A DNA stretch of 51,502 bases from Escherichia coli (GTDB lineage Bacteria; Pseudomonadota; Gammaproteobacteria; Enterobacterales; Enterobacteriaceae). The notes under the pieces were generated by a model. That model saw only the letters and a list, made by a program, of their open reading frames with translations. It had not been told where the DNA came from and searched no databases. The stretch lies in the NCBI RefSeq assembly GCF_003334255.1, contig NZ_QOWU01000037.1; one strand, written 5' to 3'. Positions 25,660 to 51,433 of the stretch are shown here, in pieces. How positions within the stretch are numbered: the stretch's first letter is position 1; each line of letters starts with the position of its first letter. The position numbers and the translations under genes are program-made.

Positions 25660-26018
25660 TCATTCCCCATTTCGGTGATGGTCAGTTCCAGCCTCCCACC
25701 TTTGGTAACAGGCATCTTCACAACACGGTAATCAACGACCTGAGCATCATCCAGCCAGAAACCTGCTTTGGTGAGTGCGTCAAAAGCGGCTTTTTGCAGA
25801 TTATCCAGGTCACGGCGACGGCGATCCGGCATGTGGCACTCAATACGGATTTTCACTGGCATAGCCAGGCCGATATCCAGCATGGAGCCTTTGATGATTC
25901 GGGCGACGTTATCGCGGTATGCCTGCCCTTCTGCGCTGACGTGCGTGCGCCCGCGATTATGGCGGTAATAGCGATTATTGCTCGGAGGCCAGGGTAATGT
26001 GATGCTGTAGGTATTCAC
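25656..26018 (-). CDS. rusA: Holliday junction resolvase RusA
   Basis: 120 aa [28 protein letters not shown]...; GTG start; matches recalled DLP12 RusA. Confidence 0.9.
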
Positions 26019-26305
26019 GCCTTAATTACCCCCTCTTTCAGCCAGATAACCTGCGTTCTCGCCATACCTTCCAGCGCGCATTCTTTTGCATATCCAGCGT
26101 CAACAAAATGCGTGCGGCGGTCGATTTCGTCGTGGCAGGCAGAACATGCAATGGTGGCAATCAGGTCTGGCGGTTTCGTACCGGTGCCGCACAATCCAGT
26201 CAGCCGGATATGTGCCAGTACAGACGTTTCAGGGTTGCCATTACATACGCCAGGGATTCTTACCTGGCATTCCCGACCACGCGCTGCTTTTCTCAAATCA
26301 GCCAT
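26015..26305 (-). CDS. YbcO-like (DUF1364) putative nuclease
   Basis: [35 protein letters not shown]...CSACHDEID Cys-rich; ORF open to 26344. Confidence 0.75.
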
Positions 26306-26468
26306 GATTCCTCCTTGCTGCCAGTCGCAACCATTTTTTATCAACCAGGCTAGCGGTATATCCGAGCAGTGTTGGTATTTCGGATGGTTTCAGCTCAGGC
26401 TTACGCTTACGACGATTTGGTACTCTGTAGATGTGTCCGTTCATGACACGAATAAGCGGTGTAGCCAT
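26298..26468 (-). CDS. NinE-like small protein (56 aa)
   Basis: Hand-translated [56 protein letters not shown]; start overlaps ybcN stop. Confidence 0.4.
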   Translation of the reverse strand: MATPLIRVMNGHIYRVPNRRKRKPELKPSEIPTLLGYTASLVDKKWLRLAARRNHG

Positions 26469-26923
26469 TACGCCTCCTGCTTGTCGCGCAGCAGCTGGAA
26501 CTCGCAGCTCTGCGGAATAGTCAGGTGGCAGCCAATATTCATCGCCCAGGCTTCAACCTTACACAGGAAGACATACATCTCTCCGCTATCAAGATTGGAG
26601 GTATGACGTAATGACTGAATGGTGGTGATTTCACCGGTTACGACATCAACCAGTTCTTTGGTTTCATAACCGAGATAAGTGTGTTTGAGAGCATCTTTTA
26701 CCCAAGCTGGAGTGGCGAACGTTTTACCCCTGCTGATGAGGTATTCACTGATTTCGCTGTACCACATGTGGCTGAGTGCATTCTGGGAAAGACTGCGTCT
26801 CTCGCGCCACGGTTTAAGCACCATGCGAAAGCATTTGCCGTCCTCCAGATAAGGCTGGATCTGCTGGCCGATAGCGGTGAAGTTACCGCGATGCAATTTG
26901 ATACCATCTTGTGGGAGGTTCAC
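26468..26923 (-). CDS. YbcN-like protein (DLP12 ybcN family; nin-region protein)
   Basis: 151 aa [19 protein letters not shown]...; GTG start with GGAGGTG SD. Confidence 0.75.
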
Positions 26924-27110
26924 GCTTCACCTCCGCAGAGATCAAACGCTGGATGCAAAATATCGCAGGTGCATTTCTGCATCTGTGAATGGAGAAGAGA
27001 GGTTGGATTGTATGTGCGCATAAACGTCCCCGTTTAGCGCAGAAGTCACCGGAGTTGTTCAGGCTCCGATGACATGATTATGGCGGGTTGATTATGGAAA
27101 ATCAATCAAG

Positions 27111-27620
27111 CTATGTTTCATCGGCGAGGTCATCATCTGTGACAATCATGAGGTTAAAGAATGAAATAATGTTTAACCACTGCGAGTAAATATCGCTCGT
27201 CATGCTGGTTAGCTCCTCTCCGTGAAAGAAGGCATCAGGCCCAACCTCATAGTTGAGCTCTTCAAAAAGCTCCATGTTTAATTGGCTAATAAAGAATTGC
27301 TTCAGACCTTTCATTGCATCCTGATTGTTGGTATCTGAGTAATTTATTATGCTCCCCATTGCCATGTTCAAACATCGAACAATATTGGCTGCGTCATGAA
27401 AGCTCCAGTCAGCCCCTTTCTTTCCTTTTGAGTATGAATTCGCTCTCTCAGCGCAAGCTTTTAATGTCTCGTACAAATACTGCTTTCCTTGCAACTGCAA
27501 AGCTTTTTCGGATGTGGCCCTGCTAGCTTCTGAGGATCGCCATGCTAAATAAGTTGCTACCGCAGATGCGATAGCTGCAATCGCAGAAACTGCATCTATA
27601 CCGTTATCCCAACCAGACAT
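27111..27620 (-). CDS. Low-GC moron protein with single N-terminal TM helix (169 aa), function unknown
   Basis: N-terminus GIDAVSAIAAIASAVATYLAW hydrophobic; ~42% GC; SD GAGGGG embedded in 3' arm of an upstream hairpin. Confidence 0.55.
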   Translation of the reverse strand: MSGWDNGIDAVSAIAAIASAVATYLAWRSSEASRATSEKALQLQGKQYLYETLKACAERANSYSKGKKGADWSFHDAANIVRCLNMAMGSIINYSDTNNQDAMKGLKQFFISQLNMELFEELNYEVGPDAFFHGEELTSMTSDIYSQWLNIISFFNLMIVTDDDLADET

Positions 27621-27650
27621 AAAAACCCCCTCGATTATTTGAGGGGATTA
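27621..27650 (-). terminator. Hairpin + U-tract immediately upstream of the 169-aa ORF start; SD sequestered in 3' arm
   Basis: mRNA sense CCCCUC aaauaauc GAGGGG GUUUUU AUG; 6-bp G/C stem, 8-nt loop, U5 then start codon. Confidence 0.5.
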
Positions 27651-27669
27651 TACCTTCAAAGTTTCCGCG

Positions 27670-27864
27670 CTACCCATTCATAACTAAAGCTTTTGCTTTC
27701 CAATGAGAAAGCGCGCTATGTTCGCTAGAACCTGTTTCGACTATATGGCGCCCCCAGGAATCTCCCCATGCTCTCCACGTTGACTTGCCGGTTTGGACTA
27801 CTGTGACAACATACTCTTTGCCGTCGATGTTAACTTCATGCTGCACTGGTGATTGTGATTTCAT
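27670..27864 (-). CDS. Small hypothetical protein (64 aa from MKSQSP...; ORF open to 27891)
   Basis: AGAGG SD 7 nt upstream of internal ATG; low GC; paired with downstream TM-protein gene. Confidence 0.45.
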   Translation of the reverse strand: MKSQSPVQHEVNIDGKEYVVTVVQTGKSTWRAWGDSWGRHIVETGSSEHSALSHWKAKALVMNG

Positions 27865-27915
27865 TTTCAAACCTCTGCTTATCGTTGACATCGCAATTAT
27901 GCTGTCACGACATAA

Positions 27916-28722
27916 TCACTTCGCCTCCTGCTGCGGTGCTGCTGCGATCATGGCCTTCCATTGGTGGTCTGGGCTCCATAATCTACCGCCATCTTCACAC
28001 TCTTCCTGCGCCTGATGGTACGCCTCACGCATTTCTGGAGTTGGCTCCTTAGGAACCAGCACCCAACCATCCGGAATCACCGGAGAGTTGCTGACGGGCG
28101 ACTCGGAAATTTTTGGCGAAGAATCTAGGGCTGGCGCGGTCTGCATGGTGGTGGGCGACTCGGCTTTTTCGGCACCCTGAAGCATGGCGTCGCGGCATCC
28201 GTCATACGCTTCTTTCATAGCATCACGCACCCATCCGACAGGTTTCTGCTCAGTCAACTCACACCATTTCTCGAATGTGGGCACAGATACCGGAACTGGC
28301 GGTGCTGCATAAAGCGCCTGACAACTCCAGCCAGACCAGTGAGCACCCTCCGCTCTCTCATCATCTTCAGGGCGAACAAGCGTGACTTCGCTCGGGTGTT
28401 TCCTGTGTGACCACAGCCAGGCTACGGTTTCGGCATTGGCTGGCTCTGGCGGGGCGGAGTAAAAATACTCATCCTCAATCCCATCAACGGGCTTTGAGAA
28501 GCCGATAAAATCACCATAATGCCAAGGATAGGGGCCGTATGGCTCAGAGGTCACACGACGCCACCGGTGAATGGCAGGCTCCGCTTCGAGCGATGCCAGC
28601 GCGATACGCAGTGCCGCCAGCGTGTTGCTGTCGCCTTCGTCCAGACCGAACGGGATTTCATCTCTGGCTGCTTCCATGTCGGCAATTTTCTGCTGCAGCC
28701 ATTGTTTGGTAATAGTGCTCAT
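27916..28722 (-). CDS. Hypothetical lambdoid early-region protein (268 aa, Trp/Pro-rich)
   Basis: ORF with ATGA coupling to ead-like gene; common nin/ea-region position. Confidence 0.5.
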   Translation of the reverse strand: MSTITKQWLQQKIADMEAARDEIPFGLDEGDSNTLAALRIALASLEAEPAIHRWRRVTSEPYGPYPWHYGDFIGFSKPVDGIEDEYFYSAPPEPANAETVAWLWSHRKHPSEVTLVRPEDDERAEGAHWSGWSCQALYAAPPVPVSVPTFEKWCELTEQKPVGWVRDAMKEAYDGCRDAMLQGAEKAESPTTMQTAPALDSSPKISESPVSNSPVIPDGWVLVPKEPTPEMREAYHQAQEECEDGGRLWSPDHQWKAMIAAAPQQEAK

Positions 28723-29132
28723 GATGCCTCTCCTTTACCGGATGCGGCGGCGATCAGCTTCTGCGCCTGCTGAATGTCAGGATTGCCTGCAATCATCACT
28801 TCTGGCGCGTCACAGTCACCGCCAAGGTCAAGAATGCGCTCATGTCCGGTACGCAGGCAGGATTTGTATCCTGAAACCGTCTGCTTGAGCGATTCGGTCA
28901 GCACAGCAATCCTCTGGTCTTTGGCTTCCAGCTCATCCAGCAGCGCCAGCACTGTGGCTGGGTTGGCTACGGAGTTCAGCGCGTTCAAGGCAGTGATATC
29001 TGCATCAAGCTGAGTTCCTTCTGCCAGTGAGATATCGAAAATGTCATCAGGCGGCATAACACTAAGGCGCTCATGTGCACCAACTGCTGCCTCAGCGATT
29101 TCACGTAATGCGCGTTTGTCGATGTTGCTCAT
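28719..29132 (-). CDS. Ead/Ea22-like coiled-coil protein
   Basis: MSNIDKRALREIAEAAVGAHERL... typical N-terminus of Ead/Ea22-like proteins of lambdoid/Stx phages. Confidence 0.6.
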   Translation of the reverse strand: MSNIDKRALREIAEAAVGAHERLSVMPPDDIFDISLAEGTQLDADITALNALNSVANPATVLALLDELEAKDQRIAVLTESLKQTVSGYKSCLRTGHERILDLGGDCDAPEVMIAGNPDIQQAQKLIAAASGKGEAS

Positions 29133-29147
29133 TCTTCATCCTCCAAC

Positions 29148-29360
29148 TCAGATACGGCGTCCATTACATCTGAGCCGCGAATGGTTTCGAATGCCACACA
29201 AGACCATTTCAAAGCACAGGCGCTCATGCGGGTGCGGAGATTGCCAATACTTGAAGCCAGGACGATGCGAATAGCCCTGCATCGCATAAAACTCTCCGGC
29301 CAATTCAATGGCGGCATCCACCAGTTCACGGTTTGTCATTGGTTTGTCGATGTTGCTCAT
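29148..29360 (-). CDS. Small hypothetical protein sharing MSNIDK N-terminus
   Basis: 70 aa; first 19 nt of gene identical to start of ead-like gene. Confidence 0.4.
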   Translation of the reverse strand: MSNIDKPMTNRELVDAAIELAGEFYAMQGYSHRPGFKYWQSPHPHERLCFEMVLCGIRNHSRLRCNGRRI

Positions 29361-29557
29361 TGGGCGGCCTCCTGGATTAACTTTTCGAGAATGGCATCAA
29401 GGGCTTTCCGTTTTCCGATATACCCGCCACCAACCCACTCTCCACGAAGCAAGGCGTAATATTTCCCGTCGTCTTCGTGATACGGTCCTCGGATAGACCA
29501 GTCGGTTGTGATGGCGTCGATAGCCTTTTTAGTTTCTGCGAAATCCATCATGCTCAT
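29357..29557 (-). CDS. Small hypothetical protein (likely start MSMMDFAE...)
   Basis: ORF open to 29614; start placed at ATG overlapping upstream gene stop. Confidence 0.4.
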   Translation of the reverse strand: MSMMDFAETKKAIDAITTDWSIRGPYHEDDGKYYALLRGEWVGGGYIGKRKALDAILEKLIQEAAQ

Positions 29558-29847
29558 ACCCCTACCCTCCCCCAAACCATCAACACCCGCTTCATCGCGG
29601 CACTCTGGCGACACTCCTTAAAAATCAGGTTAGTGCTCACCTTTCCTTCCCGTTCTTCCCTGGTAGCGAATCTGTAATACACCGTTCGCCAGACCTTACC
29701 ATCTATGACCAAGATTCCTGCCCGCGCCATTTTAGCCGCAGCCTGATTTATGCTGGTTACTGTTGCGCCTGTTACCGCGGCAACGTCCAGCGCACAGAAG
29801 CTCTTATGCGTCCCCAGGTAATAAATAATTGCCTCTTTACCCGTCAT
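29554..29847 (-). CDS. Hypothetical small DNA-binding-like protein
   Basis: 97 aa; ATGA coupled downstream of P. Confidence 0.4.
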   Translation of the reverse strand: MTGKEAIIYYLGTHKSFCALDVAAVTGATVTSINQAAAKMARAGILVIDGKVWRTVYYRFATREEREGKVSTNLIFKECRQSAAMKRVLMVWGRVGV

Positions 29848-30545
29848 ACACTTGCTCCTTTCAGCCCAAACTTAGCTTTGATTTCTGCGATCTTCGCCAG
29901 AGCCTGTGCACGATTTAGAGGTCTACCGCCCATAACAGGAAGTTGTTTTACTGGTTCAGGTATCGTCTCACCACGGTTAATTCGCGCTGTCATACAGGTC
30001 AGTTCATCGGCAGCCTTGCGCCGTAATTCCGCGTCAGTCAGCGCATTGGCCCGCATGTTCTGGTACAAGTTGGTAACCAACCAGTAATGCGCGTTCGATT
30101 TCCACGGATAAGACTCTGCATCCGGATACAGGCCACGCTTCCGGCAATACTCGTAAACCATATCAACCAGCTCGCTGACGTTTGGCAGCCCGGCGTTAAC
30201 AGATGCTTCTTCCCGGCACCAGGCGACAAACTGCCCGGGTGATGGCAGGAATGGTCGATTCTGCCGACGGGCTACGCGCATTCCAGCGTTAACCTGTTCC
30301 ATTGTGGTGATCCCGTTTTCCCGGAAAGCCAGAACCCACTGGCGACGGATTTCGTTCAGTTCATTCTGGTCACGGTTAGCCAGGCTCGCCGGGAAAGTTG
30401 CCAGTAACTGGCTGAACACACCGTTGATGATCTGCGCTACCTGCTGTACCTGTGGCTTTTCGTCGTACTGTTCCGGCATGTTGTTGGCGATCCGGCGCAT
30501 CTGCTCACAGTCAAAGTTAACCATCTGTGCGGCGATGTTTTTCAT
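29844..30545 (-). CDS. P: Replication protein P (lambda P-like DnaB loader)
   Basis: 233 aa MKNIAAQMVNFD...KAKFGLKGASV, matches recalled lambda P nearly residue for residue. Confidence 0.9.
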   Translation of the reverse strand: MKNIAAQMVNFDCEQMRRIANNMPEQYDEKPQVQQVAQIINGVFSQLLATFPASLANRDQNELNEIRRQWVLAFRENGITTMEQVNAGMRVARRQNRPFLPSPGQFVAWCREEASVNAGLPNVSELVDMVYEYCRKRGLYPDAESYPWKSNAHYWLVTNLYQNMRANALTDAELRRKAADELTCMTARINRGETIPEPVKQLPVMGGRPLNRAQALAKIAEIKAKFGLKGASV

Positions 30546-32397: not shown

Positions 32398-32501
32398 AAC
32401 AACCTCCGTGGTTAATTTGAATCAAGATTAAAACTATGGTTGTTTTTAGTCAACAACCATTTTCGTTTGATGGAATAAAACCTTGGTTGTACATTTGGAC
32501 T
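32398..32501. promoter_or_regulatory. OR/PR-PRM region between cro and cI with AACAACC/GGTTGTT operator half-sites
   Basis: Perfect inverted repeat ATGGTTGTT-N7-AACAACCAT at 32446-32470; additional AACAACC at 32399 and GGTTGT at 32485. Confidence 0.6.
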
Positions 32502-33191
32502 ATGAAAACAACACTCTCAGAAAGACTTAAAGAAGCCAGATTAGCGCGAGGCCTTACACAAAAGGCGCTTGGGGATTTGGTCGGGGTTAGCCAGGCTGCT
32601 ATTCAGAAAATCGAAACAGGGAAAGCTAATCAAACAACTAAAATCGTGGAGATCGCGAACGCTTTGGGTGTGCGCGCAGAATGGTTATCTTCTGGCGTTG
32701 GAAATATGTCAGACAGTACAGTGCAACCAATACAATCAACTGTCAGCCATTCCAAATACTTCAAGATTGACGTTCTTGATATAGAAGTCAGTGCTGGGCC
32801 GGGAGTCATCAACCGTGAGTTTGTAGAAGTTCTACGCTCGGTTGAGTACTCGTTTGACGATGCTCGTCACATGTTCGATGGTAGGAAGGCGGAAAATATC
32901 CGCATCATTAACGTGCGTGGTGACAGCATGTCAGGAACGATCGAACCAGGTGATCTGCTGTTCGTTGATATCACAGTTAAATCTTTCGACGGTGATGGTA
33001 TCTATGCGTTTCTGTACGACGACACAGCCCATGTAAAGCGCCTGCAAATGATGAAGGATAAGCTGCTGGTCATCTCTGATAACAAAAGCTACTCACCGTG
33101 GGACCCGATCGAGAAAGACGAGATGAACCGGGTGTTCATCTTCGGTAAGGTTATTGGGAGCATGCCGCAGACATATAGGAAGCATGGGTAG
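32502..33191 (+). CDS. cI: CI-type repressor (XRE HTH + S24 LexA-like peptidase domain)
   Basis: HTH LTQKALGDLVGVSQAAIQKIETG; Ala-Gly cleavage site (VSAGPG); Ser/Lys dyad (RGDSMSGT ... HVKRL). ORF open upstream to 32436. Confidence 0.85.
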   Translation: MKTTLSERLKEARLARGLTQKALGDLVGVSQAAIQKIETGKANQTTKIVEIANALGVRAEWLSSGVGNMSDSTVQPIQSTVSHSKYFKIDVLDIEVSAGPGVINREFVEVLRSVEYSFDDARHMFDGRKAENIRIINVRGDSMSGTIEPGDLLFVDITVKSFDGDGIYAFLYDDTAHVKRLQMMKDKLLVISDNKSYSPWDPIEKDEMNRVFIFGKVIGSMPQTYRKHG

Positions 33192-33312
33192 TACCAATTA
33201 AAAATTATCAACTGGGCATTGTGCTCATTCAGTAAAGAACTAATTCCTATCTTTGCTCTAGGTAGTAATATTAAGCCACCGCAATAATATCTTTACCTAA
33301 CGGCGTAAGAAT

Positions 33313-33339
33313 CCCGGTCACCGTGCCGGGTTTTCTTTT
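33313..33339 (+). terminator. Rho-independent terminator downstream of cI
   Basis: CCCGG tcaccgtg CCGGG followed by TTTTCTTTT. Confidence 0.7.
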
Positions 33340-33449
33340 GCCCTCCCCTCATCACACACACCGTTAAAAAAACCACCATAACCTCGCTTCAGTTATCGCT
33401 ATGCGATTCAAGTCACAAAATAAATCCATCCTAAATACAACCAGTTATA

Positions 33450-33510
33450 TCTAAAACAACCAATAAAACAACTTTTGTTGTTGACGATAAAACAACTATA
33501 GTTTTAAATA
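33450..33510 (+). promoter_or_regulatory. Candidate OL/PL: operator-like repeats and -35/-10 elements driving the gam-bet-exo-xis-int operon
   Basis: AACAAC TTTT GTTGTT palindrome (33469-33484) overlapping TTGACG (-35 like) with TTAAAT 17 bp downstream; AACAACTATAGTT repeat; same AACAAC half-site as OR. Confidence 0.45.
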
Positions 33511-33702
33511 AGTTCATCGCAACAACACAACGATACGGCAACTACCTGATTCACCGTTGCGATGACCGCTTAGATCCGCAGTTTGAATTTCAGCAGGCTT
33601 CGGGGAGTGCGAGGGGTGAAACGGACGCGTGAACGTCGGTGTGACCAGCTGAAATTAACTCAACATTTCATACCTTAGTCGCTTCAACGAGGCGGCTTAG
33701 TT

Positions 33703-33993
33703 ATGACAACCGGCGGCCATCCACCGCCTGAATACGCGCAGAAGTCTCTATATGTTCAGCAGCCCAGCTTACGGGCAGGAGTTTTTATGGTTCATCAACA
33801 TTATGGAACGCAGACCGTTAATCGAGGTGCGGTCATGCCAGGAATGCTGGTCAAACACAAAGATGGTACCTGGACTGCATCAGCTAATTTACGCGGACGG
33901 CTTTATCTGCATCGCGGCATCGAGTGCACTTATACCCGTGATTTGCTCGTGGAAGTTTTTCTCGACGGACGCGGTAACGGCCTGAATCACTAA
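33703..33993 (+). CDS. Hypothetical early protein at kil/cIII position (alternative strong-SD start at 33784)
   Basis: 96-aa ORF; CAGGAG SD precedes internal ATG 33784; not Arg-rich, not N-like. Confidence 0.4.
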
Positions 33994-34068
33994 TCCCCTT
34001 TCCTGTTTTCCTAATCAGCCTGGCATTTCGCGGGCGATATTTTCACAGCCATTTTCAGGAGGTCAGCC

Positions 34069-34365
34069 ATGAACGCTTATTACATTCAGGATCGTCTTGA
34101 GGCTCAGAGCTGGGCGCGTCACTACCAGCAGATCGCCCGTGAAGAGAAAGAGGCAGAACTGGCAGACGACATGGAAAAAGGCCTGCCCCAGCACCTGTTT
34201 GAATCGCTATGCATCGATCATTTGCAACGCCACGGGGCCAGCAAAAAAGCCATTATCCGTGCGTTTGATGACGATGTTGAGTTTCAGGAGCGCATGGCAG
34301 AACACATCCAGTACATGGTTGAAACCATTGCTCACCACCAGGTTGATATTGATTCAGAGGTATAA
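34069..34365 (+). CDS. gam: Gam (RecBCD inhibitor), GamS form
   Basis: [21 protein letters not shown]...[10 protein letters not shown] matches recalled lambda Gam; upstream in-frame codons resemble degenerate GamL N-terminus without ATG. Confidence 0.9.
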
Positions 34366-37112: not shown

Positions 37113-37434
37113 GGCCTGTCAGTTTCTCAAGATATCCAGACCTACCGCTACCAACTGGATACGAACAGGCCGCCTACAGGCAACACGCAAAGACCCCACT
37201 AAACCAAAATCTCCTTACCTCACAACGCGACAAGCCTGCATTGCGGCGCTTCAGTCTCCGCTGCATACTATCAAGGTGAGCGCGGGTGATGGCATAACAG
37301 AGGAAAGAAAATGTCACTCTTCCGCAGAGGTGAAATATGGTACGCCAGTTTCACATTGCCGAACGGTAAAAGATTTAAACAGTCTCTTGGAACAAAGGAC
37401 AAAAGGCAGGCGACAGAACTCCATGACAAGCTAA
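37084..37434 (+). CDS. xis: Excisionase-like DNA-binding protein (xis); 3' end overlaps int
   Basis: [34 protein letters not shown] typical of Xis/AlpA-like proteins; AGAGG SD; C-terminal extent uncertain. Confidence 0.55.
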
Positions 37435-38474
37435 AGGCTGAAGCATGGCGGGTCAGCAAACTTGGTGAAATACCTGATATAACGTTCGAGGAAGCGTGTG
37501 TCAGGTGGCTTGAAGAGAAAGCACATAAAAAATCACTGGACGATGACAAAAGCCGGATCGGATTCTGGCTTCAACATTTCGCAGGAATGCAACTAAGAGA
37601 CATTACTGAATCAAAAATTTATTCAGCAATGCAGAAAATGACGAACCGGCGTCATGAGGAAAACTGGAAACTCAGGGCAGAAGCATGCAGAAAAAAAGGG
37701 AAACCTGTTCCAGAATACACGCCAAAACCAGCGTCCGTTGCAACGAAGGCTACGCATCTTTCATTTATAAAGGCCCTACTAAGAGCCGCAGAGCGTGAAT
37801 GGAAAATGCTGGATAAGGCACCAATTATTAAAGTGCCTCAACCAAAGAATAAACGGATCCGCTGGCTGGAGCCCCATGAAGCACAAAGGCTGATTGATGA
37901 ATGTCCGGAGCCATTAAAGTCTGTTGTTGAATTTGCACTGGCAACAGGCTTAAGACGCTCGAACATCATCAACCTTGAATGGCAACAAATAGATATGCAG
38001 CGCCGGGTGGCATGGATAAACCCGGAAGAGAGTAAATCAAACCGCGCAATCGGCGTTGCGCTGAATGATACTGCATGTCGCGTTTTGAAAAAACAAATCG
38101 GGAATCATCACCGTTGGGTATTTGTGTACAAGGAAAGCTGTACCAAACCAGACGGAACGAAAGCGCCAACAGTAAGGAAGATGCGGTATGACGCAAACAC
38201 AGCCTGGAAAGCAGCGCTGAGGCGGGCTGGTATTGATGATTTCAGATTTCACGACTTGAGACACACCTGGGCAAGTTGGCTGGTTCAAGCCGGAGTCCCG
38301 TTGTCAGTGTTACAGGAAATGGGAGGCTGGGAGTCTATCGAAATGGTTCGTCGATATGCTCACCTTGCACCTAATCACCTTACCGAACACGCACGGCAAA
38401 TAGACTCGATCCTGAACCCATCGGTCCCAAATTCGTCCCAGTCAAAAAATAAGGAAGGTACTAATGATGTGTAA
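37311..38474 (+). CDS. int: Tyrosine integrase (thrW-specific, SfV/e14-like family)
   Basis: 387 aa; catalytic residues R...[15 protein letters not shown]...VRRYAHL (RHRY motif); stop 14 nt from tRNA 3' end. Confidence 0.9.
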
Positions 38475-38488
38475 CTTATTGATTTAAA

Positions 38489-38564
38489 TGGTGCCGATAA
38501 TAGGAGTCGAACCTACGACCTTCGCATTACGAATGCGCTGCTCTACCAACTGAGCTATATCGGC
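38489..38564 (-). tRNA. thrW: tRNA-Thr (anticodon CGU), thrW; phage attachment site
   Basis: GCCGATATAGCTCAGTTGGTAGAGCAGCGCATTCGTAATGCGAAGGTCGTAGGTTCGACTCCTATTATCGGCACCA; cloverleaf with CGT anticodon and encoded CCA. Confidence 0.9.
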
Positions 38565-50630: not shown

Positions 50631-51433
50631 TGAACCGCCCCGGAAATCCTGGAGACTAAACTCCCTGAGAAAGAGGTAAACAGGATGACTAAAAATACTC
50701 GTTTTTCCCCCGAAGTCCGTCAGCGGGCGATTCGTATGGTTCTGGAAAGTCAGGATGAATATGACTCACAGTGGGCGGCAATTTGTTCCATTGCCCCAAA
50801 GATTGGCTGTACGCCGGAGACTCTGCGTGTCTGGGTTCGCCAGCATGAGCGGGATACCGGGGGCGGTGATGGAGGGCTCACCACCGCTGAACGTCAGCGT
50901 CTGAAAGAGCTGGAACGTGAAAATCGTGAACTGCGCCGCAGTAACGATATCCTTCGCCAGGCTTCCGCTTATTTTGCGAAGGCGGAGTTCGACCGCCTCT
51001 GGAAAAAATGATGCCACTGCTGGATAAGCTGCGTGAGCAGTACGGGGTCGGACCGGTATGCAGCGAACTGCATATTGCCCCGTCAACGTATTACCATTGT
51101 CAGCAACAGCGACATCATCCGGATAAACGCAGTGCCCGTGCGCAGCACGATGACTGGCTGAAGAGAGAGATACAGCGCGTATACGATGAAAATCATCAGG
51201 TGTACGGTGTGCGTAAAGTCTGGCGTCAGTTGTTACGGGAAGGAATCAGGGTGGCCAGATGTACAGTGGCGCGCCTCATGGCGGTTATGGGACTTGCCGG
51301 TGTTCTCCGGGGTAAAAAGGTCCGCACTACCGTCAGCCGGAAAACCGTTGCCACAGGTGACCGCGTAAACCGTCAGTTCGTGGCAGAACGTCCTGACCAG
51401 CTGTGGGTGGCTGATTTTACTTACGGTGTGCCC
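50631..51433 (+). mobile_element. IS629 (IS3 family) 5' fragment, interrupted before the DDE domain
   Basis: Terminal TGAACCGCCCCGG; orfA and orfB proteins match recalled IS629. orfB frame diverges after ...WVADFTY and stops. Confidence 0.75.
50685..51011 (+). CDS. IS629 OrfA (transposase HTH/leucine-zipper subunit)
   Basis: [42 protein letters not shown]... Confidence 0.85.

What the first reader, a model, noticed from the sequence alone, without database searches (positions are those of the whole stretch)
27111..27891. Low-GC two-gene moron between replication and nin genes: hairpin-gated N-terminal-TM protein (candidate abortive-infection/exclusion module)
The 169-aa product has one N-terminal TM helix and a soluble domain with no motif I recognise. 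A 64-73-aa partner ORF lies upstream. Both are ~42% GC, well below neighbours. Immediately upstream of the 169-aa start the mRNA forms CCCCUC-aaauaauc-GAGGGG followed by UUUUU-AUG. That is an intrinsic-terminator-like hairpin whose 3' arm is the only SD. The gene would therefore be both transcriptionally insulated and translationally masked unless the hairpin is remodelled. This is a typical design for toxic effector genes (Abi/superinfection-exclusion or TA-like). The position (after P, before ninB) is a known moron hotspot in lambdoid phages.
Basis: partly seen in the sequence, partly recalled or inferred. Interest (0 to 1): 0.65.

Follow-up and report, generated by a model that had tools for sequence, protein, structure and literature searches.

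The report
Phage cargo gene behind generic terminator
An uncharacterised membrane-protein gene sits in a known cargo slot of a lambda-like E. coli prophage, and the hairpin in front of it is a standard gene junction shared by many unrelated phage genes, so the locus is largely ordinary and its function is unknown.

Summary
On the minus strand there is a 169-aa ORF (27111-27620), a real but unannotated 64-aa ORF (27670-27864) and a -14.2 kcal/mol hairpin (27624-27649) whose 3' arm is the only Shine-Dalgarno sequence. Both genes are low in GC (43% and 47%, neighbours 50-57%).

The 169-aa protein belongs to a small Enterobacterales prophage family (PHROG 1779). It has no Pfam, NCBIfam, PADLOC, PDB or fold match. 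It likely has one N-terminal membrane helix and a helical domain with no catalytic signature.

The 64-aa gene is not a partner. It precedes the family gene in 16 of 95 loci, all at least 96% identical copies. Its 81% relative precedes a DNA polymerase III theta homologue instead.

The hairpin is not a private gate. The same TATAAT-CCCCTC-loop-GAGGGG-T-run-ATG junction occurs in at least 120 viral contigs, in front of at least seven unrelated gene families. It most likely acts as a lambda tR2-like intrinsic terminator that also holds the ribosome-binding site.

Cargo status in the ren-ninB hotspot is supported. An abortive-infection or exclusion role is untested. Interest is low to moderate.

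The parts
27111..27620 (-). 169-aa cargo gene of the PHROG 1779 family (RefSeq WP_000017329.1, 'hypothetical protein'). Predicted to have one N-terminal membrane helix (about residues 8-27), a long stalk helix, a helical bundle and an acidic C-terminal tail.
   Evidence: ORF. RefSeq annotation. PHROG 1779 at E = 2.5e-77. No Pfam, PADLOC or NCBIfam hit. AF2 model with pLDDT 89, all-helical. Hydropathy.
27624..27649 (-). Stem-loop AAUCCCCUC / AAAUAAUC / GAGGGGGUU. It looks like an intrinsic terminator, and its 3' arm is the only Shine-Dalgarno sequence of the 169-aa gene. It is a copy of a widespread nin-region gene junction.
   Evidence: -14.2 kcal/mol. Conservation and covariation. Generic occurrence.
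27647..27652 (-). TATAAT hexamer abutting and overlapping the 5' arm. TATAAT or TATACT is present in all 17 distinct junction versions examined. It contains a TAA stop that is in frame with the gene. Whether it acts as a -10 box is unproven.
   Evidence: T3 A4 T5 A6 T8 invariant. No -35 or TG enrichment. In-frame TAA.
27618..27623 (-). End of the U-run (UUU) and the AUG start codon of the 169-aa gene, directly after the stem.
27670..27864 (-). 64-aa ORF (73 aa if read from 27891). A real coding gene that RefSeq does not annotate. It is a separate cassette, not an obligate partner.
   Evidence: Homologues of 62-64 aa. Third-position bias. Linkage statistics. Alternative downstream gene. No family or PDB hit.
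27004..27110 (-). Right boundary of the cargo slot: the conserved leader of the ylcH(orf33)-ybcN(ninB) genes. It holds a TTGATT-17-CATAAT promoter-like site, an invariant palindrome and two covarying hairpins.

Best explanation
The locus is a single-gene accessory cassette. It sits in the usual cargo slot of a phage-82/DLP12-like lambdoid prophage, just upstream of the conserved ylcH-ninB leader.

(1) Gene organisation. The 64-aa ORF and the 169-aa gene are two independent cassettes that became neighbours only recently (shown).

(2) The hairpin. It is one copy of a portable junction of about 45 nt: upstream stop codon, TATAAT, CCCCUC/GAGGGG stem, U-run, AUG. Enterobacterial lambdoid phages use this junction between many different nin-region genes (shown). 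It most likely acts as an intrinsic terminator comparable to lambda tR2. That would make the cargo gene and everything downstream depend on antiterminated early transcription. Because its descending arm carries the Shine-Dalgarno sequence, it would also keep translation low unless the stem is opened, for example by ribosomes finishing the upstream ORF (inferred).

(3) The protein. It is a bitopic inner-membrane protein with N-out, C-in topology. It has a small-residue-rich membrane helix, a long stalk and a helical cytoplasmic domain with no catalytic signature, so it should act by binding or oligomerisation rather than catalysis (inferred). My best single guess for its role is superinfection exclusion or phage-phage competition at the inner membrane, at about 0.3-0.35. 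An early lytic host-modulating role is about as likely.
For: Setting:
- The gene order is cI, cro, O, P, ren..., ylcH, ybcN, ninE, ybcO, rusA, ylcG, quuD, ompC, then lysis genes.
- The module is in 25 of 5426 E. coli genomes and its flank in 2822.

Family:
- There are 29 clusters at 90% identity and 36 representatives among 1.8 billion proteins, all about 155-175 aa.
- Members lie in early operons of lambdoid prophages and point the same way as their neighbours, on the pR side (L009, L097, L003) or the pL side (L005, L347).

Partner: 16 of 95 loci carry the 64-aa gene, and only at 96% identity or more. The theta-like gene is the alternative downstream neighbour.

Junction:
- It is present upstream of family members from 49% to 100% identity. 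Loops vary and stems covary: CUCCCUUC/GAAGGGAG in L048, and an added G:C pair in L014.
- At least 120 IMG/VR contigs carry it.
- Among 87 distinct copies, the start codon lies 3-9 nt after GAGGGG in 62, and an upstream ORF stops within 6 nt of TATAAT in 38.
- The downstream genes fall into at least seven unrelated families, including DNA_pol3_theta, DUF1643 and TonB_C-like.

Terminator reading:
- Lambda tR2 is comparable in place and form: an 8-bp stem, an 8-nt loop and a U-run, at -15.7 against -14.2 kcal/mol.
- It is the longest-stemmed terminator-like site found on this strand in 26000-30000.
- Intra-operon terminators and tight packing of nin genes are established (PMC8022706).

Protein: the hydropathy and positive-inside pattern hold family-wide, and P0061 has two extra N-terminal membrane segments. 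No invariant catalytic-type residues appear in the broad alignment.
Against: - Nothing here shows termination or translational masking in vivo.
- The U-run is not conserved in every copy (L009 has AUUAUU, L014 has CAUUAAA), so not all copies can be efficient terminators.
- No full-length N gene was seen between cI and gam in this prophage. It is therefore unclear how read-through would occur here.
- The invariance of TATAAT is not explained by a pure terminator model.
- The membrane helix is Ala-rich and only borderline hydrophobic in this member (1.74). AF2 draws it as part of one 60-residue helix.
- The protein's role is a guess. There is no homology or fold match to any exclusion or defence protein.
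Confidence: 0.55

Rival explanations
1. First reader's model. The 64-aa and 169-aa genes form a two-gene toxic abortive-infection, exclusion or toxin-antitoxin-like module. The effector is deliberately kept silent by a dedicated terminator and Shine-Dalgarno-masking hairpin until that hairpin is remodelled.
For: - Low GC, sporadic distribution and hotspot position.
- An N-terminal membrane helix with small-xxx-small motifs, as seen in many membrane-acting effectors.
- The Shine-Dalgarno sequence really lies inside a -14 kcal/mol stem in this locus.
- Neighbouring cargo in relatives includes PD-lambda-1 and a pyocin.
Against: - The pairing is confined to near-identical copies: 16 of 95 loci, and 0 of 76 below 90% identity.
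- The 64-aa gene also pairs with a theta homologue.
- The two genes are separated by 49 nt and not coupled. The 64-aa protein has no DNA-binding or antitoxin-like domain.
- The hairpin is generic and most often precedes a harmless-looking theta gene.
- More distant family members have a free GGAG after the hairpin.
- No PADLOC hit.
Confidence: 0.1
2. Promoter-inside-terminator insulator. TATAAT is a -10 box placed so that transcription starts in the loop, about 7-8 nt downstream. Locally initiated transcripts then lack the 5' arm and escape both termination and Shine-Dalgarno masking, while read-through transcripts from pR are stopped or masked. The logic matches IS10 'fold-back inhibition' (from my own knowledge: Davis, Simons and Kleckner 1985).
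For: - TATA(A/C)T is invariant in all 17 distinct junctions, although sequence further upstream and the loops vary freely and only its last three bases pair.
- The predicted +8 position is A in 69 of 86 copies.
- A transcript starting in the loop leaves the Shine-Dalgarno sequence unpaired, with an MFE of -4.4 kcal/mol.
- In the PhiR-type lineage a different hairpin again pairs the Shine-Dalgarno region (AUAAGGU) with a segment (ACCUUAU) that lies inside a TTGATT-17-GATATT promoter-like spacer.
Against: - There is no -35 enrichment at 16-18 nt compared with control offsets, and TGn is present in 1 of 86 copies.
- Consensus promoter scans are not above shuffled expectation.
- Some copies are perfect palindromes, TATAATCCCCTC...GAGGGGATTATA, so TATAAT can be explained as an old stem extension.
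- TATAAT also supplies a TAA stop, and the upstream consensus TAGTGAT looks like a stop-codon cluster.
- No transcription-start data are available.
Confidence: 0.15
3. The protein is a delayed-early lytic-cycle accessory factor, involved in host takeover, anti-defence or modulation of replication or lysis timing. It is not a lysogen-expressed defence gene, and the hairpin merely tunes its level within the operon.
For: - In every context the gene points the same way as, and lies inside, the early pR or pL operon. It sits among ea-, nin-, Ead/Ea22- and DUF551-type early genes.
- No convincing promoter of its own in this locus.
- No defence-system hit.
Against: - In several lineages the gene is bracketed by terminators or followed by a canonical one. 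L003 and L004 have a strong terminator and about 200 nt of AT-rich spacer upstream. L057-L059 and L347 have a terminator downstream. This layout is that of an independently transcribed moron.
- Its sporadic distribution argues against any core lytic role.
Confidence: 0.3

Closest known systems
Lambda tR2 and the other intra-operon intrinsic terminators of lambdoid nin regions
   Same: Both lie in the early-right operon after P/ren and before ninB. Both have an 8-9 bp GC-rich stem, an 8-nt loop ending in UAAUC and a U-run (UUUUUAU). Stabilities are similar, at -14.2 against -15.7 kcal/mol. From established lambda biology, such sites make downstream nin and Q expression depend on antitermination.
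   Different: The stem sequence is unrelated. In lambda the ninB Shine-Dalgarno sequence lies downstream of the terminator, whereas here the 3' arm is itself the Shine-Dalgarno sequence. Here the element is a repeated, portable junction with an invariant TATAAT, found in front of many different genes. Termination was not measured.
IS10/IS50 'fold-back inhibition' (ribosome-binding-site sequestration in read-through transcripts)
   Same: The ribosome-binding site sits in the 3' arm of a hairpin, and the 5' arm lies at or just downstream of a -10-like hexamer. Only transcripts coming from upstream would be masked.
   Different: No promoter is demonstrated, and no -35 or extended -10 was found. 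The comparison rests on my own knowledge of IS10, not on a test here.
Lambdoid morons that encode small inner-membrane exclusion proteins (for example HK97 gp15, P22 SieA/SieB)
   Same: Sporadic low-GC cargo in a lambdoid prophage that encodes a small membrane-anchored protein with no enzymatic motif. In some lineages the gene is followed by its own terminator.
PHROG 1779, and the UniRef label 'DUF4760 domain-containing protein'
   Same: Full-length match to PHROG 1779 at E = 2.5e-77. One UniRef cluster name for the identical protein says DUF4760.
   Different: PHROG 1779 has no assigned function. The current Pfam-A copy gives no hit at all at E <= 1 for this protein, and DUF4760 is not among the 25 families listed for the 29 members scanned, of 39 matched. 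A Hafnia member carries another automatic label, 'Fungal N-terminal domain'. These names probably reflect the Ala-rich helix and say little.

Membership tests
PHROG 1779 (phage protein family of unknown function) | Significant full-length match to the family profile | tested here: met
   E = 2.5e-77, residues 3-167 against profile positions 2-169 of 169.
Pfam DUF4760 (name given by UniRef) | Match to the Pfam model at or above its gathering score | tested here: not met
   No Pfam-A hit at E <= 1 for the protein. DUF4760 is not among the 25 families listed (of 39 matched) when the 29 members were scanned. The label comes only from a UniRef name.
Known anti-phage defence systems (PADLOC-DB v2) | Match of any component to a defence-system profile | tested here: not met
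   No families at E <= 1 for the 169-aa, 73-aa or 268-aa proteins.
Two-gene toxin-antitoxin or abortive-infection module | The two genes are conserved together across the family | tested here: not met
   The 64-aa gene is upstream in 16 of 95 loci, all at least 96% identical, and in 0 of 76 below 90%. Its homologue pairs with a theta-like gene.
Two-gene toxin-antitoxin or abortive-infection module | Overlapping or translationally coupled genes, and a partner with a DNA-binding or neutralising domain | tested here: not met
   The genes are 49 nt apart with a hairpin between them. The 64-aa protein has no Pfam, NCBIfam, PHROG or PDB match.
Two-gene toxin-antitoxin or abortive-infection module | Toxicity of the effector, or phage resistance on expression | not testable with these tools
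   Needs expression and phage-challenge experiments.
Rho-independent (intrinsic) terminator | GC-rich stem of at least 5 bp with a short loop, immediately followed by a U-run | tested here: met
   9 pairs (5 G-C), an 8-nt loop, then UUUUUAU. Listed first in the scan, with the longest stem on this strand in 26000-30000. -14.2 kcal/mol.
Rho-independent (intrinsic) terminator | Structure conserved, with compensatory changes, in related sequences | tested here: met
   15 of 17 distinct versions fold into the stem. There are double changes (C-G to U-A in L048) and an inserted G:C pair (L014). There are few independent events, and the U-run is not conserved in L009 or L014.
Rho-independent (intrinsic) terminator | Transcripts end at the U-run in vivo or in vitro | not testable with these tools
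   Needs Term-seq or in vitro transcription.
Moron (autonomous promoter-gene-terminator cargo in a lambdoid phage) | Sporadic presence between conserved flanks, with atypical base composition | tested here: met
   25 against 2822 genomes. 43.1% GC against 50-57%. The right flank is conserved in 73 of 95 family loci.
Moron (autonomous promoter-gene-terminator cargo in a lambdoid phage) | Own sigma-70 promoter | tested here: inconclusive
   A perfect TATAAT is present, but there is no -35 or TG enrichment. Scans are not above shuffled expectation.
Moron (autonomous promoter-gene-terminator cargo in a lambdoid phage) | Own downstream terminator | tested here: not met
   There is none after the stop codon in this locus, where the ylcH leader follows directly. 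Relatives L347 and L057-L059 do have one.
Bitopic (single-pass) inner-membrane protein | One hydrophobic segment of about 19-21 residues, with a positive-inside charge bias | tested here: inconclusive
   Kyte-Doolittle 19-residue maximum of 1.74 here and mostly 1.5-2.5 in the family. The N-terminus is acidic, and Arg and Lys follow the segment. P0061 adds two further membrane segments. No dedicated topology predictor was available and there is no experiment.

The most novel reading that the evidence does not exclude
The TATAAT-hairpin junction may be a portable 'insulated expression cassette'. In this reading the terminator contains its own -10 box, so locally started transcripts begin in the loop and escape both termination and Shine-Dalgarno masking. 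Lambdoid prophages would then express swappable cargo genes in the lysogen while silencing them in read-through transcripts. In the same reading, PHROG 1779 is a new single-gene, membrane-anchored superinfection-exclusion or abortive-infection protein.
Probability: 0.1. Interest if true: 0.6.

Novelty: new member of a known kind. Interest (0 to 1): 0.3.

Why it matters
As submitted, the finding suggested a purpose-built gate on a toxic defence gene. The evidence shows instead an uncharacterised cargo gene behind a standard junction, so it should not be ranked as a defence-system lead on the strength of its architecture.

Two modest points remain useful.

(1) A sharply conserved junction of about 45 nt, combining a terminator and a ribosome-binding site, marks the swap points of many nin-region cargo genes in enterobacterial lambdoid phages. 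It could serve as a search handle for cataloguing such cargo, and as a test case for how intra-operon terminators and Shine-Dalgarno occlusion tune early-operon genes.

(2) PHROG 1779 is a small, confidently modelled family (pLDDT 89) with no fold relatives. It is a cheap candidate for a phage-challenge screen.

Tried and rejected
- Deeper family search. A profile search of 1.8 billion representatives found 36 proteins, and a second word-indexed search found none with a Pfam domain.
- The search for related loci with the broad alignment failed because it had no conserved stretch. The narrower alignment worked.
- A generic CCCCTC...GAGGGGNTTT scan of viral contigs returned unrelated terminators from many kinds of phage and was dropped as uninformative.
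- Rfam gave no family for the hairpin or the downstream leader.
- The -35 and extended -10 test for the promoter idea showed no enrichment.
- Literature searches for DUF4760, the protein accessions, the PhiR phages, the junction sequence and hotspot terms gave nothing relevant. The exception was general statements on the nin region and its terminators.
- I considered boxB/nut identity for the hairpin and rejected it. The loop is 8 nt rather than a GNRA-like pentaloop, no boxA is present, and the position is wrong (from my own knowledge of nut sites).
- I considered a Sec signal peptide for the N-terminus and rejected it, because the n-region is acidic.
Full report
**1. What is in the sequence**

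All genes in this region run on the minus strand. The 169-aa ORF is 27111-27620. Upstream lies a 73-aa ORF at 27670-27891.

Homologues of the small ORF are 62-64 aa and all start at the internal MKSQS or MKPQS. That start has an AGAGG Shine-Dalgarno sequence, and the 73-aa start is not conserved in relatives. The gene is therefore 27670-27864 (64 aa). Between homologues, 23 of 35 nucleotide differences fall on third codon positions, and both length and frame are kept. It is a real coding gene, although RefSeq leaves it unannotated.

GC is 43.1% for the 169-aa gene and 46.7% for the 64-aa ORF. The neighbouring ninB, P and 268-aa genes are at 50-57%.

Between the two genes the RNA folds as AAUCCCCUC-AAAUAAUC-GAGGGGGUU (27649->27624), followed by UUU and AUG. 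The hairpin energy is -14.2 kcal/mol. Its stem motif occurs once in the window, against none in 100 shuffles. GAGGGGG is the only Shine-Dalgarno-like sequence before the AUG.

**2. Setting**

The window is an E. coli lambdoid prophage of the phage-82/DLP12 type. The gene order is cI, cro, a YdaT-like gene, O, P and ren. Small early genes follow (Ead/Ea22 and a 268-aa protein), then the 64-aa ORF and the 169-aa gene. After these come ylcH (orf33), ybcN (ninB-like), ninE, ybcO, rusA, ylcG, quuD, an ompC/nmpC porin and the lysis genes.

The 1-kb stretch around the finding is complete in only 25 of 5426 complete E. coli genomes. Its rightmost 100 bp, the leader of ylcH-ybcN, matches in 2822 genomes. 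No sequenced phage record carries the module.

The same slot holds other cargo in relatives. PhiR26_1 carries PD-lambda-1 and Rha there, and L344 carries an S-type pyocin. From my own knowledge, DLP12 of K-12 carries emrE and ybcK-ybcM in this position. The label 'cargo in a hotspot' is therefore justified.

**3. The protein**

It matches PHROG 1779 (function unknown) over its full length, at E = 2.5e-77. Nothing matches in Pfam, NCBIfam, PADLOC or the PDB by sequence.

The family is small. There are 29 clusters at 90% identity, and 36 representatives in a library of 1.8 billion proteins, nearly all 155-175 aa and from Enterobacterales. One UniRef name says 'DUF4760', but the current Pfam does not match it.

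The N-terminus carries an Ala/Ser/Gly-rich hydrophobic segment. Its best 19-residue Kyte-Doolittle mean is 1.74 here and mostly 1.5-2.5 across the family. Acidic residues and a Trp precede it, and Arg and Lys follow. One relative (P0061) adds two further membrane segments in front. This fits an N-out, C-in single-pass anchor, although no topology predictor or experiment backs it.

In the broad alignment the near-invariant residues are Q44, L53, N61, W72, A87, L114, P128 and W148, plus a C-terminal acidic D/E-D-L-x-D tail. This is not a catalytic signature.

**4. The 'partner'**

I located 95 family loci: the window, three public collections and two sequenced phages. The 64-aa gene lies directly upstream in 16 of them, all with at least 96% protein identity. 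It is upstream in none of the 76 loci below 90% identity. Other family members follow a 57/58-aa ORF, Rha plus a terminator, a ParE-like gene or other genes.

Conversely, the 81%-identical relative of the 64-aa gene is followed by a DNA polymerase III theta homologue rather than by this family. The two genes are thus independent cassettes that became neighbours recently. They are not an operon-like pair.

**5. The hairpin is a generic junction**

The upstream 110 nt of all family loci fall into classes. In one class the start codon is preceded by TATAAT (or TATACT), a CCCCTC-type stem and a T-run. This class spans 49-100% protein identity across Escherichia, Enterobacter, Klebsiella, Kluyvera and Phytobacter.

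- The loops differ freely.
- The stems covary: CUCCCUUC/GAAGGGAG in L048, G-U intermediates in L049, L027 and L030, and an inserted G:C pair in L014.
- In the more distant members a separate GGAG follows the T-run. Shine-Dalgarno masking is therefore not a conserved property of the family.

The decisive observation is that the same element precedes the unrelated theta-like gene in L103 and L104.

Among 87 distinct copies with enough flank, a start codon of an ORF of at least 40 codons lies 3-9 nt after GAGGGG in 62. An upstream ORF of at least 50 codons stops within 6 nt of TATAAT in 38.

The downstream proteins cluster into at least seven unrelated families:

- theta homologues (29 of 57 distinct proteins)
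- a 60-aa basic protein
- this family
- a TonB_C-like secreted protein
- a 192-aa membrane protein
- DUF1643
- an 82-aa protein

Some copies are perfect palindromes, TATAATCCCCTC...GAGGGGATTATA. The hairpin is therefore a portable gene junction of lambdoid nin regions, not a device specific to a toxic gene.

**6. What the junction most likely does**

It has the form of an intrinsic terminator. It resembles lambda tR2, which lies between ren and ninB, in stem length, loop length and tail. The loop even ends in the same UAAUC. The energies are -14.2 and -15.7 kcal/mol.

Nin genes are known to be tightly packed, and lambdoid operons contain internal terminators. These are thought to stop transcription that lacks antitermination or to lower downstream mRNA (PMC8022706). 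I therefore read the element as a tR2-like terminator that also houses the ribosome-binding site.

From established work on Shine-Dalgarno occlusion (my own knowledge: de Smit and van Duin), a -14 kcal/mol stem should depress translation strongly unless it is opened. In the commonest arrangement the upstream stop codon is only 2-5 nt from TATAAT. A terminating ribosome could then melt the base of the stem and couple the two genes. This is inference. In this window the gap is 17 nt, so coupling would be weaker.

Two caveats apply. The U-run is degraded in some copies (L009, L014). I also found no full-length N gene between cI and gam in this prophage.

**7. The promoter-in-hairpin idea**

TATA(A/C)T is invariant in all 17 distinct junctions, although only its last three bases pair. 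A start 7-8 nt downstream would fall in the loop, where position +8 is A in 69 of 86 copies. The resulting transcript would have a free Shine-Dalgarno sequence. This would mirror IS10 fold-back inhibition.

The evidence against it is stronger:

- There is no -35 enrichment at 16-18 nt relative to control offsets.
- TGn occurs in 1 of 86 copies.
- Promoter scans do not exceed shuffled expectation.
- The hexamer can also be explained as the remnant of a longer palindromic stem, and as a TAA stop within a TAGTGAT-TATAAT stop cluster.

I keep this reading as a minority possibility, at about 0.15.

**8. Function of the protein**

In every context the gene lies inside an early operon and points the same way as its neighbours. 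This holds on the pR side and, in Serratia and Hafnia, on the pL side between recombination genes and xis/int.

In several lineages it looks like an independent unit. In the PhiR phages a strong terminator and about 200 nt of AT-rich spacer precede it. In L057-L059 and L347 a canonical terminator follows it.

Taken with its sporadic distribution, membrane anchor and lack of catalytic residues, I favour a binding or oligomerising inner-membrane factor. Superinfection exclusion or phage-phage competition is my best single guess, at about 0.3-0.35. A delayed-early host-modulating role is about as likely. Neither can be tested here.

**9. Comparison with known systems, and novelty**

The gene is a member of an already catalogued but uncharacterised phage family. 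The hairpin works like a nin-region terminator such as tR2, but it is not homologous in stem sequence. It differs in carrying the Shine-Dalgarno sequence and in being a repeated junction.

The locus fails the tests for a two-gene toxin-antitoxin or abortive-infection module. It only partly meets the definition of a moron: composition and sporadic presence are met, a promoter of its own is inconclusive, and a terminator of its own is absent in this locus.

I rate it 'new member of a known kind', with interest 0.3. The recurrent junction is the most reusable result.

**10. Side observation**

The 100 nt downstream of the gene (27004-27110) form a conserved leader. It has an invariant TTGATT...AATCAA palindrome and two hairpins with compensatory changes in 8 of 19 pairs. 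One hairpin has a conserved CUGAACAA loop. The other presents GGGGA in its loop and holds the ylcH AUG in its 3' arm. It has no Rfam match.

Noticed in passing
window 27004-27110 (minus strand); also downstream of the family gene in 73 of 95 loci: A conserved leader of the ylcH(orf33)-ybcN(ninB) genes. It holds a TTGATT-17-CATAAT promoter-like site overlapping an invariant TTGATT...AATCAA palindrome. One hairpin has a conserved (C)CUGAACAA loop and a covarying stem. A second covarying hairpin shows GGGGA in its loop and holds the ylcH AUG in its 3' arm. 8 of 19 pairs carry compensatory double changes. It has no Rfam family, and the phage 82 record only notes a 'possible regulator-binding site'.
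   Followed up: partly
window 27670-27864 (minus strand): The 64-aa ORF is a conserved coding gene, shown by third-position bias and homologues in Klebsiella and other genera. RefSeq/PGAP does not annotate it in identical E. coli chromosomes. It has no family, fold or PDB match.
   Followed up: partly
IMG/VR loci L106-L225 (e.g. L106:94-119, L103:4215-4246): The TATAAT-CCCCTC-loop-GAGGGG-T-run junction most often precedes an 85-aa homologue of DNA polymerase III theta (HolE/Hot-like). It also precedes DUF1643, TonB_C-like and other small genes. Some phages carry two or three copies, including perfectly palindromic ones (L114, L131, L165, L169), which could act as intragenomic recombination points.
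   Followed up: partly
window 33192-34068 (plus strand): No full-length N-type antiterminator ORF lies between cI (32436-33191) and gam (34069-34365). There is only a 31-aa Arg-rich ORF (33583-33678, ...RGVKRTRERR...), which might be a remnant. The prophage may lack N or use another antitermination mechanism.
   Followed up: no
L003 743-2245 (phage PhiR26_1); L344 5942-8389: In relatives, the slot next to the family gene carries PD-lambda-1 (as annotated) or an 815-aa S-type pyocin on the opposite strand. This confirms the region as a cargo hotspot.
   Followed up: no
C-terminus of the 169-aa protein (residues ~160-169; window ~27111-27140): An acidic tail, T-D-[DE]-D-L-x-D, is conserved across most of the family, including 25-30% identical members. 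It may be a short linear interaction motif.
   Followed up: no
window 29129-29360 (minus strand): RefSeq marks the early gene here as frameshifted (a pseudogene) in the identical chromosome. Two overlapping ORFs are seen in the window.
   Followed up: no
window 38492-38564 (minus) and 50966-51082 (plus): A tRNA gene lies directly next to the integrase (37311-38474) and is the likely attachment site. An ALIL pseudoknot, the IS3-family frameshift signal, lies near the right end of the window and points to an IS element.
   Followed up: no
L003 3840-3905 and L004 3840-3905 (PhiR-type family members, 46-47% identity): A different upstream hairpin pairs ACCUUAU, which lies inside a TTGATT-17-GATATT promoter-like spacer, with AUAAGGU, which contains the Shine-Dalgarno sequence. 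The masking logic is the same as in the window but the sequence is unrelated. It follows a strong terminator and about 200 nt of AT-rich spacer.
   Followed up: partly
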